In this document: piece by piece, positions 19,964 to 61,787 of the stretch
Numbering within the stretch: the stretch's first letter is position 1
Layout of the letters: each line of letters begins with the position of its first letter
Source of the DNA: Octopus vulgaris
Lineage: Eukaryota
Reading direction: 5' to 3'
Assembly (NCBI GenBank): GCA_951406725.2
Contig: OX597815.1
Location: 28,520,001 to 28,584,000 of the forward strand
DNA length: 64,000 bases
Position numbers and translations under genes: made by a program
Notes under the pieces: model-generated
What the model was told of the DNA's origin: nothing
The model's input: only the letters and a program-made list of their open reading frames with translations
Databases searched by the model: none

Positions 19964-20011
19964 AAAAAAGCTGCCATGCTTACTAGAGATTCCAGTAGAA
20001 CTTCTATCAGG
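19964..20011 (+). CDS. Micro-exon A1, 48 nt: KKAAMLTRDSSRTSIR
   Basis: ttttcttttgcag / gtaata; first unit of the array. Confidence 0.8.
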
Positions 20012-20704
20012 GTAATAATTAAAGATATATCAATTTGCCTGTCCTTGATTGAGAAGTAACTATTCAAATATCTATAACATATTATATATATATATGCATG
20101 CATGTATGTACATATGTATGTACATACATATGTATGTATACATGTATGTAGTAAACAAAATAAAATGGATAGCTCAAAACATCATTATATGCATTTCAAC
20201 CATGTGGTTATTTATTACCAATGTAAAGTACATAACATTCCGTAATTTCATATTTTGACATAATCAACGAATTTCAGCCAGTAATACTGGGTAAAATGCT
20301 GGAAAATCTGTGAGGATAAACATCTTTATCCCCAAAGACTGATTGCATTTCCCTGAATGGCTACAGAATATCATCTGATGAAATGGAATTGTTATGTGAC
20401 AATGCAGAATTATGTAATGTTATAGAACATACTTTACATTCATAATAAATAACCATGCTATTGAAATGCATGTCATATGTTGAGGTTTCCATTCACTTTT
20501 TTACACAAAGTGATTCGTTTTACAATATGTACCACTTATATTATTGGTACATACATAGATTTACTGAGTATGAATGACTGGTAGACGACTGTCTGAATGT
20601 GTGTTGTGGACCACTAGACTCACCAGTTTAAATGTTGTTCTATTTAAAATCAATGAATATACATTAATGGAATCCTGAATATAAGTTTACCTTTTGTTTT
20701 ACAG

Positions 20705-20752
20705 AGAAGATCTACCTTAGAATCCAGAGATGAATTTCTTGAATCTGAAAGG
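20705..20752 (+). CDS. Micro-exon A2, 48 nt: RRSTLESRDEFLESER
   Basis: ttttgttttacag / gtaatt, phase 0-0. Confidence 0.8.
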
Positions 20753-21390
20753 GTAATTATTACAGATATATTAAATTGCTTGTCCTAGATTGAAAAGCAA
20801 CTATTCAACCATCTATGCCATTGTCTGTGTGTGTGTGAATGTGTATGTATGTGTGTGTATGTGAGAGAGAGAGAGAAAGAGAGAGAGGTACCTGAATGTA
20901 TAGGTCAAAACATCATTATACACATCTCAACAGTATGATTATTTCCTATCAATGTAAAGTACATTATGTAACATTATGTAAATTCCCATTCTGGCATAAT
21001 CACGACATTTCTATGCAGATAAAGGTCTTTATCCCCAAAGATTGATTGTATTTCAATGCGTGATTGCTGAGTATCACCTGATGAAATGGTATGGTTATGT
21101 AACAATGCAGAATTATATAATGTTATATAATGTTCTTTGCATTCATAATCATGCTATTGAAATGCATGTGGTGATATGTTGAACTTTCCATTCTCTTTTT
21201 CTACACAAAATCATGCAATATGTACCAGTTATGCCATTGATATATACAAGATACTTAAAACCAGTAATCAACACTCTGACTCTGTGTGGTCTCTTCACTG
21301 ACCAGTTTAAATGTTGTACTATTTATAATCAAGAAATTTGTTTACTATGTTAATAGAATTATGAATATATGTTTTCCTTTTGTTTTACAG

Positions 21391-22393
21391 AGAAAATCTG
21401 CCTTTATTTCTAACTCTCTTGAAAGCTACACACCATGTGGATATTTGCATTCCGTCCTATGGAGGGCTCATAGGACTTGTGACCTAAAATTAAGGGGAGC
21501 TAAATAGCATGACTATAATATGTCTATAATAACTATATGCCCCGGTGGTGTTTGATCAGAGGTTAAAGATTGATGAGAATTAATTCTGTAATGCAATTAT
21601 TTGCGTCCCAAGTTAAATTTCAAATATCGGCCAGTTTGTCCCAAAGTTCTTGACATAAAATTTATCGCCCACTTCATCTCTGACGTCATCTCACAAATGC
21701 CAGTCAAAGTGGTGTGCATCATCCATGCTGTATCTGCTACAACAAGCAAATAAAATGCTTTTAAATCAGATTTAATTGCTGGATGTTCAAGAATGTAGGG
21801 TAGAGTTTCAATCCCTGTTTCATCCTGATTCCAAAATGTATATGTCTCTGTAGAGGCGCAGGAGTGTCTGTGTGGTAAGTAGCTTGCTAACCAACCACAT
21901 GGTTCCGGGTTCAGTCCCACTGCGTGGCATCTTAGGCAAGTGTCTTCTGCTATAGCCCCGGGCCGACCAATGCCTTGTGAGTGGATTTGGTTGACAGAAA
22001 CTGAAAGAAGCCTGTCGTATATATGTATATATATATATATATATATATATGTATATATATATGTGTGTGTGTGTGTGTGTGTGTGTGTGTATGTGTTTGT
22101 TTGTGTTTGTCCCCCTAGCATTGCTTGACAACCGATGCTGGTGTGTTTACATCCCCGTCACTTAGCGGTTCGGCAAAAGAGAACAATAGAATAAGTACTG
22201 GGCTTACAAAGAATAAGTCCTGGGGTCGATTTGCTCGACTAAAGGTGGTGCTCCAGCATGGCCACAGTCAAAGGACTGAAACAAGTAAAAGAGTAAAAGA
22301 GAGTAGAGCAAATGTGGACTGAGACACAGGGCTTCCAAAAAACAGAATTTCGCCTTTATCATAATAGAAGATCATCACATGGATACTGACAGA
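21391..22393 (+). pseudogene. Micro-exon A3 split by a ~0.95-kb insertion; rejoined it reads RKSAFIIIEDHHMDTDR
   Basis: Intact acceptor; GCCTTTAT duplicated at 21400-21407 and 22352-22359; donor degraded to gttata, followed by the usual intron motif. Confidence 0.7.
21854..22302 (+). mobile_element. SINE family 2 nested in the insertion that splits A3
   Basis: Full head-to-tail copy; gtagag repeated at both ends. Confidence 0.88.
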
Positions 22394-23124
22394 GTTATAG
22401 TTAAAGATATATTAATTTGCTTAACCTGCAGTAAAGAGCAACTATTCATCCCTCTATACCATTGTGTATGTGTGAGTTTGAGTGTGTGTGTGTGTGTGTG
22501 TGCATGTGTGTTTGCTCTGTATGTGTGTGTACGTGTGTGTGTGAGTGAATGTGTGGTAACAAAAAATGAATGGATAGTTCAAAACATCATGATACACATC
22601 TCAGCTGTGTGATTATGTATTATCAATGTAAAAGTACACTACATAACATTCCGTAATTTCATATTCTGACATAACCACGACATTTCATCTAGTAATATTG
22701 GGTAAAATGCAGGCAAATCTGTGAGGATAAACATATTTATCTCCAAAGACTGATTGCATTTCACTGAATGGCTACTGAATATCACCTGATGAAATGGGAT
22801 TGTTATGTGACAATGCAGAATTATGTAATGTTATAGAAAATACTTTGCATTCATAATAAATAACCATGCTATTGAAATGCATGTCATGATATGTTGAGCT
22901 TTCCATTCACTTTTTTACCCAAAGTGATTCGTTTTGCAAAATGTATCAATTATGTTCTTGGTACATACTTGGATTTACAGAGTACAAAAGACTAGTAGAC
23001 AACTGTGTGACTGTGTGTGCAGACCACTAGACTCACCAGTTTAAATGTTGTTCTATTTAAAATCAAGAAATATATTTACTACAGTAATGGAATCTTGAAT
23101 ATATGTTTTCCTTTTGTTTTACAG

Positions 23125-23172
23125 AAAAAATTTGCCTTAGAATCCAGAGATGATAGTCTGGATCCTGATAAG
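23125..23172 (+). CDS. Micro-exon A4, 48 nt: KKFALESRDDSLDPDK
   Basis: ttttgttttacag / gtaatt. Confidence 0.8.
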
Positions 23173-60022: not shown

Positions 60023-60108
60023 ATTATAAATATATATATATATATATATATATATATATATATATATATATATATATATATATATATATATATATATATA
60101 TATATATA

Positions 60109-61309
60109 TCTTATTATAAAAGGCAGATTTTATCTGCCTCCCTTTGTCACTTATAGAAATCTACAATATAGGATTTCTTCAATTACAATTTACCTAGCAT
60201 TTTTAAGAGTAGAATGCATCGGGTCATGCCAGGTCCAGTTTTTAAAATTTAAACTCCAATTAAGCAAAATTTACAGAAAACTCACATTCTGGTGTGTATG
60301 TCAAATGCTTTTCTTAGTCTGGTTTACAGCACATGCAAACGCACACACACAGTGTGCAACGAATAAAGTGAAACTAGATGTAATATTTGTTTCTGTCTAT
60401 CACGCTGATAGATACATGAGTAAAATGTATGGCAAGCTAAGAGATAAGAGTGAGTGAAAATGTTCTTGGAAGAGAGTAAATAGCGACAGATTGATTTGAG
60501 GAAGACTAAACTGAAAGTATGAAACAGTGTTTATGTATAAACAGACGACACTTATATATAGTTATTAATAAATGTATGCATCCGTTTAACACTTTCATTA
60601 CCAAACCGCCCGAATTTACCTATTCATATTTAAATGAGAATATCAGAGTAAATCTCTTTAGTACATTCGTGGAAACACGTATTATACTTCGTAAACACTT
60701 CAAATACAGTTTTGTACAAAAATCGAAGTGTAATTTTAATTCCGTGAATTATGGGAGATTTTTTTCCGAAATTTGTTCCTATTGTGTTTTCAAAATTTGT
60801 AATTCTGACAAAAAATGGATACGAATTTCATTATATCAAGCAGCGAGTCAGAATTCGAAGGATTTTCTACTGAAGACGTTCATAAATCTAACTCTATGAC
60901 TGAAAAAAAAAGCATCTTTATATAAGAGTGAAGTTGTGTGTCTGTCTCCTACGATTTAGATTCGTAACTACTCCCACATTTTGCGGTGCAGTTTAACCAA
61001 AAGCAGGTATCTTATAGTCGTGATTCATATCGAGCCCTTCTGGGTATTAGCGCGCGTCTACGATGAGTCTACGATTTAAAAAAAATTTACCATCATATTT
61101 TTCCATTTTAATGCATTTTTTCGCTTTTATATAAGGGAAGTAACTCTCTAAAAATATCTACGATGTGTCAACGATTTTAAAAAAAAATTTACCTTAATTT
61201 TTTTTCAATTTTTAATGCATTTTTTTGCTATTTTTTGGCTATAACTCTCTAAAAATGCTTATATAGTTATTTCCCTTACAACCCGAGCAACGCCGGGCGA
61301 TACTGCTAG
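60109..61309 (+). mobile_element. Composite non-autonomous Helitron
   Basis: a|TC start, second TC-type start near 60915, 3' hairpin cccgagcaacgccggg then CTAG|t. Confidence 0.75.
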
Positions 61310-61457
61310 TATATATATATATATATATATATATATATATATATATATATAGTTAATCCAAACAAGAAAACACAAAAAAACAAAAAAACACAGCAACGCG
61401 AGGACGTGGAACAAATAAAGTATTATTGGACGCTCAGGAAGGAAGGGAAGAAGGAGG

Positions 61458-61492
61458 GTTTAACGTTTCGAGCGGAGCTCTTCGTCAGAAAC
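61458..61492 (-). ncRNA. Minimal hammerhead motif in a ~200-bp dispersed repeat; related copies ~52716-52749 and ~8090-8125
   Basis: Minus strand gttt CTGACGA a gagc tcc gctc GAAA cgt TA aac. Confidence 0.6.
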
Positions 61493-61730
61493 ATAGGAGA
61501 AGGAAAGATCCCGAGAAGGGAAGACAGAGGAAAAAAATCGGCAGCGGTACTCACGAGGTCACACACACACATATATATATATATATATATATATATATAT
61601 ATATATACATACACACACTTGTATACATGTTAAATTCTAAAGTGTCTTTAAACTGTGCAATTTGAAACAATGAAATATATTGACTATGTTTACACAAGTG
61701 ACTTTCTTTTTATTTTTATTATATTCATAG

Positions 61731-61787
61731 GTACAAAGTGTTCCAATTTTTGAGTCACCCACAAAGGAGATGAAAGATGCTTCTACG
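61731..61787 (+). CDS. Micro-exon B3, 57 nt: VQSVPIFESPTKEMKDAST
   Basis: atattcatag / gtattc. Confidence 0.75.

What the first reader, a model, noticed from the sequence alone, without database searches (positions are those of the whole stretch)
19964..61787. Hidden cassette array of ~17 tandemly duplicated phase-0 micro-exons on a coiled-coil protein
Seen: the apparent ~0.7-kb repeat carries one AG..GT micro-exon per unit, none recovered as such by the ORF track. Intact lengths are 30, 42, 45, 48, 51 and 57 nt, all multiples of 3, phase 0-0 and stop-free, in frame with six upstream exons. Inference: any subset can be skipped without frameshift, so the locus could give a combinatorially spliced, length-variable tail. 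I do not recognise the gene; I cannot say it is undescribed without a search.
Basis: partly seen in the sequence, partly recalled or inferred. Interest (0 to 1): 0.9.

Follow-up and report, generated by a model that had tools for sequence, protein, structure and literature searches.

The report
Micro-exon linker in octopus C10orf67
The octopus version of the little-studied gene C10orf67 carries about 35 tiny same-frame exons, each copied with its flanking intron, that are likely spliced into a long, fast-changing, predicted-floppy middle section of the protein, and single exons are probably skipped at times, but free mix-and-match splicing is untested.

Summary
The array is real and larger than reported. 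The window holds 18 units (16 with AG..GT, all 3n, phase 0-0). Nineteen more follow, up to 54 kb past the window end, and coding exons come after them, so the array is an internal linker, not a tail. The gene is the single-copy octopus C10orf67/DUF4709 gene. A RefSeq model of O. sinensis already joins 28 of the 35 units. O. bimaculoides has orthologous units, its own expansions, and three RefSeq isoforms that differ by single units. The linker (about 444 aa, S/T/K/D-rich, predicted disordered) is absent from the eight other full-length homologues measured. Exons diverge about twice as fast as flanking introns (p 8e-6); omega is 1.8-2.1 but borderline. Best reading: gain and loss of units by tandem duplication, with most exons included and occasional skipping. 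I saw no spliced junction in RNA data, so combinatorial splicing is neither shown nor excluded. The closest known case is schistosome SmVAL6; this is not a MEG. The scan's unchecked notes report similar arrays in other octopus genes (neprilysin-like, adhesion GPCR, ITIH, TRPM), so this may be a recurring octopus pattern.

The parts
154..300 (+). upstream coding exon (49 aa), coiled coil just after DUF4709
   Evidence: identical to P0001 aa 112-160; single match in own genome
4152..4239 (+). upstream coding exon, phase 0-1
12996..13066 (+). upstream coding exon, phase 1-0
16207..16260 (+). upstream coding exon, 54 nt
16510..16584 (+). upstream coding exon, 75 nt
18281..18370 (+). last coiled-coil exon before the array, ends in phase 0
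19964..20011 (+). micro-exon A1, 48 nt
   Evidence: in P0001
20150..20501 (.). first of ten copies of a ~350-nt decayed palindrome (MITE-like) in the A-unit introns; last copy 31004-31360
20705..20752 (+). micro-exon A2, 48 nt
   Evidence: in P0001
21391..22393 (+). broken A unit, split by a 944-nt insertion (21408-22351) with an 8-bp target-site duplication
   Evidence: absent from P0001
23125..23172 (+). micro-exon A, 48 nt
   Evidence: in P0001
24078..24125 (+). micro-exon A, 48 nt
   Evidence: in P0001 with 3 aa differences
25251..25298 (+). micro-exon A, 48 nt
   Evidence: in P0001
26272..26301 (+). micro-exon A, 30 nt
   Evidence: in P0001
27142..27189 (+). micro-exon A, 48 nt
   Evidence: in P0001
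27888..27935 (+). micro-exon A, 48 nt
   Evidence: in P0001
28973..29017 (+). A unit with mutated ancestral acceptor; a shifted AG gives 45 nt in frame; upstream flank cut by a repeat insertion
   Evidence: absent from P0001
29687..29728 (+). micro-exon A, 42 nt
   Evidence: in P0001
31573..31620 (+). micro-exon A, 48 nt, last of the A clade
   Evidence: in P0001; clade support 100/99
36345..36395 (+). micro-exon, 51 nt
   Evidence: in P0001
43479..43520 (+). micro-exon with two in-frame donors (27 or 42 nt); P0001 uses the 27-nt form
49229..49241 (+). broken B unit: acceptor and first codons kept, body lost in a (CATA)n array
49707..49763 (+). micro-exon B1, 57 nt; absent from P0001, matched in O. 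bimaculoides P0007 (11 of 19 aa)
56772..56828 (+). micro-exon B2, 57 nt; absent from P0001, matched in P0007 (12 of 19 aa)
61731..61787 (+). micro-exon B3, 57 nt; last unit inside the window
   Evidence: in P0001 and P0007
61788..64000 (+). intron running out of the window. Beyond it (window numbering continued, loci L001-L008): 19 further units of 30-57 nt at 66045-117846, including a 3-kb tandem burst at about 86.1-101.1 kb and one out-of-frame 55-nt unit at 92070; then seven C-terminal coding exons and the stop codon at 118977-135619

Best explanation
About 35 homologous same-frame micro-exons sit between the two coiled-coil-predicted halves of the octopus C10orf67/DUF4709 gene and are likely spliced, mostly together, into a predicted disordered spacer of about 440-530 residues whose length probably changes mainly through gain and loss of units in the genome, with occasional single-exon skipping. 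Step 1 (shown by homology and tree): one phase 0-0 exon with its splice-site flanks was duplicated again and again, in local bursts (A, B and E clades; the youngest is a 3-kb repeat at 96-99% identity). Unequal crossing-over is the inferred mechanism. Step 2 (shown): length changes almost always keep the frame; copies die by insertion, acceptor loss or frameshift. Step 3 (inferred from RefSeq models of two species): most units are included in the mRNA and some are skipped singly. Step 4 (partly shown): the peptide is not conserved and may be driven to change, while frame and S/T/K/D-rich composition persist. Step 5 (inferred, about 40%): the protein is a cytoplasmic coiled-coil scaffold, plausibly of sperm or cilia, and the spacer acts as a multi-site phosphorylatable tether that sets the distance or charge between its two ends.
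For: Units, frames and chance tests. Homology search and tree. 3-kb repeat identities. Gene identity: DUF4709 at 27.8 bits, cut-off 27; Atlas top hit DUF4709 at 0.95; both ends align with proteins named C10orf67. P0001 joins 28 of 35 units. O. bimaculoides has orthologous units in the same order and its own near-identical runs, and isoforms X2 and X3 lack one unit each. The spacing between two conserved landmarks is 736 aa here against 253-396 aa in 8 of 8 other full-length homologues measured. AlphaFold2: helices 20-150, 186-324, 753-801 and 827-871, pLDDT under 50 over most of 337-745. Exon rate 1.77 against 0.75-0.94 for three intron partitions, LRT p 8e-6 for 8 units and 8e-5 for 7 units. 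Against P0001, 10 of 444 array residues differ and 2 of 477 elsewhere, p 0.018. CK2-type motifs: 28 against 18.9 shuffled, p 0.0055.
Against: No spliced junction was seen here. RefSeq XP_ models are predictions whose RNA support I could not inspect, and near-identical units can give false skipping junctions in short reads. Omega above 1 is borderline: p 0.031, 0.063, 0.106 and 0.111 in four models. Basophilic and S/T-P motifs are not significantly enriched (p 0.08 and 0.10). Low pLDDT may partly reflect a shallow alignment (17 rows, 4 of them octopus). The sperm or cilia role rests on recall of human expression data plus one table row naming testis; no call showed tissue in octopus.
Confidence: 0.62

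Rival explanations
1. Broad combinatorial cassette splicing, as in SmVAL6: many units are independently skipped and cells make a large pool of spacer lengths.
For: All intact units are 0-0 and 3n. Only 2 of 35 donors have +5G. Isoforms X2 and X3 skip single units. Units 49707, 56772 and the 82320 type are missing from P0001 but present in O. bimaculoides models. Unit 43479 has two in-frame donors. Palindrome arms can pair across units almost as well as within a unit (-74 against -81 kcal/mol, shuffled -36), which could loop exons out.
Against: P0001 (cluster of 1, no isoform suffix) holds 28 units in series, and P0002 holds about 12 A-type units with no isoform suffix. Only 3 isoforms are on record for the second half. 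30 of 35 donors have -1G, which can offset the lack of +5G (the offset is recalled knowledge). Units missing from P0001 may be assembly gaps. The palindrome shows no covariation beyond shuffles (96 of 500 reach the score) and no strand bias (GU 134, AC 129).
Confidence: 0.22
2. Near-neutral bloat: a constitutively spliced array tolerated in a weakly constrained, low-expression gene, with selection only against frameshifts and stops and no role for length or sequence.
For: Pooled Nei-Gojobori dN/dS 1.16; omega does not differ from 1 in 3 of 4 models; dead and half-dead copies are present; repeat insertions fill the introns.
Against: Exons change faster than even the deeper intron partition (1.77 against 0.94), with codon position 2 the fastest (2.70). 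Orthologous units persist in order in O. bimaculoides. Isoforms with single skips are on record.
Confidence: 0.13
3. Mutually exclusive choice among duplicated exons (Dscam-like), or pseudo-exons that are not spliced at all.
For: Tandem homologous exons with repeated intronic palindromes; no junction seen here.
Against: Models of two species join many consecutive units. Frame and stop-free status are kept far beyond chance.
Confidence: 0.03

Closest known systems
Schistosoma mansoni SmVAL6 (PMC2270263, passages read; PMC4350168, passages read)
   Same: A conserved domain plus a long region built from many small same-phase exons; no signal peptide; similar repeated charged peptides; phosphorylation proposed.
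   Different: SmVAL6 has 38 exons, 17 under 20 bp, at the C-terminus, and 35 isoforms in 67 clones were shown. Here the exons are 30-57 nt, internal and demonstrably homologous including their introns, and only single-unit skipping in a relative's gene models is on record.
Schistosome micro-exon genes, MEGs (10.1101/2023.06.21.545858, passages; PMC4350168, passages)
   Same: Symmetric very short exons, long introns, in-frame skipping possible, fast evolution.
   Different: MEGs are secreted, multi-gene, schistosome-specific and mostly micro-exon-coded (majority 15 bp). Here there is one gene, no signal peptide, and 48% of the model is in the array.
C10orf67 / DUF4709 family (PF15821): homologues from Physella, Gigantopelta, Mytilus, Pleurodeles, Polypterus
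   Same: N-terminal DUF4709, long helices, and the C-terminal EKK-ILQ-S--AL--E-Y-RQTLQRQ block.
   Different: Non-octopus homologues have 253-396 aa between the landmarks, against 736 here. The octopus DUF4709 is diverged (27.8 bits against 111-130).
Symmetric-exon duplication building disordered regions, e.g. SIBLING and enamel-matrix genes (PMC3632108, passages); caseins and titin PEVK (recalled, no call)
   Same: Repeated phase-symmetric short exons that encode disordered, kinase-site-rich segments.
   Different: Different families; the first are secreted. Here the array is a lineage-specific insert inside a coiled-coil protein.

Membership tests
C10orf67/DUF4709 | N-terminal DUF4709 (PF15821) at or above the Pfam cut-off | tested here: met
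   P0001 27.8 bits, cut-off 27; P0002 25.6, below it; Atlas score 0.95
C10orf67/DUF4709 | conserved C-terminal helical block shared with named C10orf67 proteins | tested here: met
   phmmer hits and alignment A4
C10orf67/DUF4709 | DUF4724 (PF15852), seen in 15-56% of members of two Atlas clusters | tested here: inconclusive
   not hit in P0001 or P0002, nor in any of the 17 related proteins scanned, including named C10orf67 proteins
C10orf67/DUF4709 | single-copy orthology | tested here: inconclusive
   one match in own genome for one exon; no reciprocal search against human, no gene tree, no synteny test
Schistosome MEG | most of the coding region in very small symmetric exons | tested here: not met
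   444 of 923 codons; 2 of 35 units at or under 36 nt
Schistosome MEG | N-terminal signal peptide, secreted | tested here: not met
   highest 11-residue hydropathy in the first 40 aa is 0.89 (a crude test, no signal-peptide predictor)
Schistosome MEG / SmVAL6-like | many small same-phase exons, skippable in frame | tested here: met
Schistosome MEG / SmVAL6-like | large pool of spliced isoforms shown in transcripts | tested here: inconclusive
   3 RefSeq isoforms in O. bimaculoides; RNA contigs uninformative
Neural (SRRM3/4-type) microexons | 3-27 nt and an upstream UGC motif (definition recalled) | tested here: not met
   0 of 35 units at or under 27 nt in their full form; TGC in 6 of 35 units against 2 of 16 other exons
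Mutually exclusive exon cluster (Dscam-like) | one exon of the cluster per transcript | tested here: not met
   gene models of two species join consecutive units; models only, not reads

The most novel reading that the evidence does not exclude
The 35 cassettes are spliced combinatorially and are under diversifying selection, so octopus sperm or ciliated cells make a large family of C10orf67 scaffolds that differ in spacer length and charge. Together with similar arrays noted in other octopus genes, this would be a recurring cephalopod route to protein diversity, parallel to the schistosome micro-exon genes.
Probability: 0.18. Interest if true: 0.72.

Novelty: new member of a known kind. Interest (0 to 1): 0.42.

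Why it matters
It is a clear, datable case of a conserved single-copy gene gaining about 450 residues by serial exon-plus-intron duplication, with births, deaths and separate expansions in two octopus species all visible, and with exons changing faster than their own introns. It shows how such genes break annotation: the O. bimaculoides and Argonauta models are split in two, and the only O. vulgaris protein found is a 67-aa fragment. It also gives a ready test of whether symmetric micro-exon arrays in cephalopods are used combinatorially. The kind of architecture is known and the protein's function is not, which caps the interest.

Tried and rejected
RNA evidence. The run search listed no holder on record as RNA. 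Contigs of 4 of the 24 listed runs were laid on 13000-25340 only. Repeat-derived contigs swamped the tables, 558 joints were not shown, and no joint at an annotated exon boundary was among the 15 shown. Run X5 had depth 0.33 and 0.47 in the two bins holding exons 16207 and 16510. That fits one contig of depth about 2.5 covering only those exons (2.52 and 2.58), but X5 also had 0.29 in the next bin, which holds no known exon, and zero over 23125. This is a hint at most and is not used as evidence. Units downstream of 25340 were never laid against RNA.

Intronic palindrome as a selected splicing structure: rejected for now. It folds strongly (z -7.7), but its arms are dispersed over many contigs, there is no covariation and no strand bias, so it is a decayed MITE-like passenger.

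Neutral stop-codon simulation on 8 A units gave only p 0.04, weak by itself.

The AT-rich stretch 37580-38780 as a mitochondrial insert: no Pfam or Rfam hit; it is a dispersed repeat with 123 matches.

The Atlas structure search gave only generic helices. I ran no fold search or complex prediction, since long helices would be uninformative. Two phmmer hits (P0015, P0016) match only by repeat composition and were left out of alignment A4; P0010, P0022, P0023 and P0026 were also left out of it.

Literature: no paper holds the locus names or DUF4709. Searches for octopus with micro-exon or tandem exon duplication gave no description of this array in their listings. C10orf67 and 4921504E06Rik listings showed no functional study (passages). 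The casein search was empty. DeMarco 2010 is not held, so the MEG definition comes from secondary passages. No supplements were read; gene lists in octopus transcriptome supplements may give the tissue of expression. Subscription papers were not searched.
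Full report
Setting. The window is G000:C2:28520001-28584000 of a 2.8-Gb genome, AT-rich and full of microsatellites and dispersed repeats. Named protein homologues place it in Octopus, very close to O. sinensis: the mapped exons differ from the O. sinensis model at 12 of 921 residues. I fetched 100 kb upstream and 98 kb downstream; coordinates above 64000 continue the window numbering.

Observation. Self-comparison shows a repeat of about 0.7-1 kb from 19.9 to 31.7 kb, each copy with a pyrimidine tract, AG, a short exon and GTAAT. 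Six more units follow at 36345, 43479, 49229, 49707, 56772 and 61731. That makes 18 units in the window, 16 with both splice sites, all 3n, phase 0-0 and stop-free. One A unit is split by a 944-nt insertion with an 8-bp target-site duplication, and one B unit runs into a (CATA)n array. Six upstream exons are in frame. A profile built only from 15 in-window units found 18 more units between 66.0 and 116.3 kb at E 4e-20 to 2e-4. A nineteenth, at 117817, came from the splice-site scan and the protein map and is only weakly homologous. In total there are 35 units with AG..GT, 34 of them 3n; the exception is 55 nt at 92070. Of 34 tested, 33 are open in frame 0, 19 in frame 1 and 4 in frame 2, and only 9 of 27 intronic gap events are 3n. 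Eight length changes are the minimum and 7 keep the frame (p 0.0026). Broken units were counted apart, so this test concerns units that kept both splice sites.

The gene. The 49-aa exon at 154-300 found two proteins: O. sinensis XP_036356659.1 (P0001, 923 aa) and O. bimaculoides XP_052821827.1 (P0002, 476 aa). P0001 passes the DUF4709 cut-off, the Atlas agrees, and both ends align with molluscan and vertebrate proteins named C10orf67. The exon has one match in the genome. P0001 maps exon by exon from -10.6 kb to 135.6 kb and joins 28 of the 35 units as residues 287-730, 13 of them in the window. Seven C-terminal exons follow (118977-135619), so the array is an internal linker. The distance between two conserved landmarks is 736 aa in P0001 and 253-396 aa in the 8 other full-length homologues measured. 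AlphaFold2 predicts long helices at both ends and pLDDT under 50 over most of 337-745 (mean 56.5, pTM 0.28).

History. A tree of the 35 units shows three well-supported local clades: A (11 rows), B (3) and E (8), with deeper forks open. Five E units sit in a 3-kb tandem repeat at 96-99% identity. O. bimaculoides has matching units in the same order (B1-B3, 66045, 74892, 80127, 82320, 106339, 112615, 116254) and its own near-identical runs of A and E type. The array therefore predates the split of these species and keeps turning over. Argonauta has two adjacent partial models, one with its own short repeats visible by eye; its exon structure was not seen. Each A-type intron holds a ~350-nt palindrome (z -7.7; all ten copies fold better than shuffles). 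Its arms occur on many contigs, and it shows no covariation or strand bias. I read it as a decayed MITE-like element copied along with the unit; a role in promoting duplication or exon looping is speculation.

Selection. Among eight 48-nt A units, exon identity is 60% against 77-79% in the flanks. Partitioned rates are 1.77 for the exon and 0.88, 0.75 and 0.94 for the near-upstream, downstream and deeper intron; equal rates are rejected (p 8e-6; 8e-5 without the most divergent unit). Omega is 1.8-2.1, with p 0.03-0.11 against omega = 1 over four models; the pooled counting estimate is 1.16. The caveats are 16 codons per unit, gap-filtered intron columns, constraint on splice flanks, base-composition differences and possible gene conversion. 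Against O. sinensis the array differs at 10 of 444 residues and the rest at 2 of 477 (p 0.018). Against O. bimaculoides identity is 233/286 (N-terminus), 148/190 (C-terminus), and 41/78 and 103/193 in the array. So frame is constrained, sequence is not, and diversifying selection is suggested but not established.

Is it alternatively spliced? For: RefSeq lists three O. bimaculoides isoforms; X3 lacks the first and X2 the second 20-aa E-type unit (that these are exons is inferred from homology). P0001 omits 49707, 56772 and 82320, which O. bimaculoides models include, and uses the inner of two in-frame donors at 43479. Donors almost all lack +5G (2 of 35 have it). Against broad combinatorics: single models with long runs of consecutive units and no isoform suffix, possible mis-mapping among near-identical repeats, and possible assembly gaps. 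My own RNA test was uninformative (see Tried and rejected). That RefSeq models with so many tiny exons rest on RNA alignments is my knowledge of the pipeline, not a call result.

Mechanism and function. Most likely, serial tandem duplication of a symmetric exon with its flanks, tolerated because the insert is disordered and in frame, gives a mostly included S/T/K/D-rich spacer with occasional skipping (0.62). CK2-type motifs are enriched over shuffles (28 against 18.9, p 0.0055); two other motif classes tested are not. The family has no known function in the passages read. A sperm or cilia scaffold role is inferred from coiled-coil anatomy, fast evolution and recalled testis expression of human C10orf67.

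Comparison and novelty. In design it works like SmVAL6 (38 exons, same-phase small exons, 35 isoforms in 67 clones) and fits the general link between symmetric exons, duplication and disorder. It is not a MEG and not a neural microexon cluster by the features tested. I found no description of this array in the searches made, but most of its exons are already in RefSeq. The scan's own notes had nothing near this place but list similar arrays in other octopus genes; these are unchecked leads. Papers seen: passages only for PMC5094585, 10.1101/2023.06.21.545858, PMC3632108, PMC3906575, PMC4350168, PMC2270263, PMC10298883 and PMC3578742; all others as listings. Verdict: real, a new member of a known kind, interest 0.42.

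Noticed in passing
window 20150-31360, ten copies: A ~350-nt degenerate palindrome in each A-unit intron; its arms are dispersed in the genome (MITE-like); arms of different units can pair almost as well as arms of one unit.
   Followed up: yes
extended coordinates about 86100-101100 (loci L003-L004): A very young 3-kb tandem block, 96-99% identical, with one micro-exon per copy. The copy at 92070 has one extra base (real pseudo-exon or assembly error). The O. sinensis model has two such units where this genome has five.
   Followed up: partly
extended coordinates 82320-82373 (locus L003, near its start): Unit with a weak GTGATA donor, one codon shorter than its O. bimaculoides counterpart; the ancestral donor appears lost and replaced 3 nt upstream.
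   Followed up: partly
window 21408-22351: 944-nt insertion with an 8-bp target-site duplication inside an exon, holding a nested short repeat; element type not identified.
   Followed up: partly
window 37580-38780: 82% AT dispersed repeat, 123 matches in the genome at up to 91% identity over most of its length, often with inverted flanking pieces; no Pfam or Rfam hit.
   Followed up: partly
window about 45560-46900: Decayed LINE-like reverse-transcriptase fragment in an intron (RVT_1, E 2.7e-4, below cut-off).
   Followed up: partly
window 14233-14520, 28771-28901, 51752-51955: 62-63-nt tandem units inside a common dispersed repeat.
   Followed up: no
P0014 (Gigantopelta) and P0009 (Argonauta): Other molluscan C10orf67 proteins carry their own short repeats in the same middle region, suggesting a site that tolerates insertions; exon structure unknown.
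   Followed up: no
P0003 and P0007 (older O. bimaculoides models): The gene is split into two models, each with unrelated-looking sequence at the break (end of P0003, start of P0007); probably annotation artefacts.
   Followed up: no
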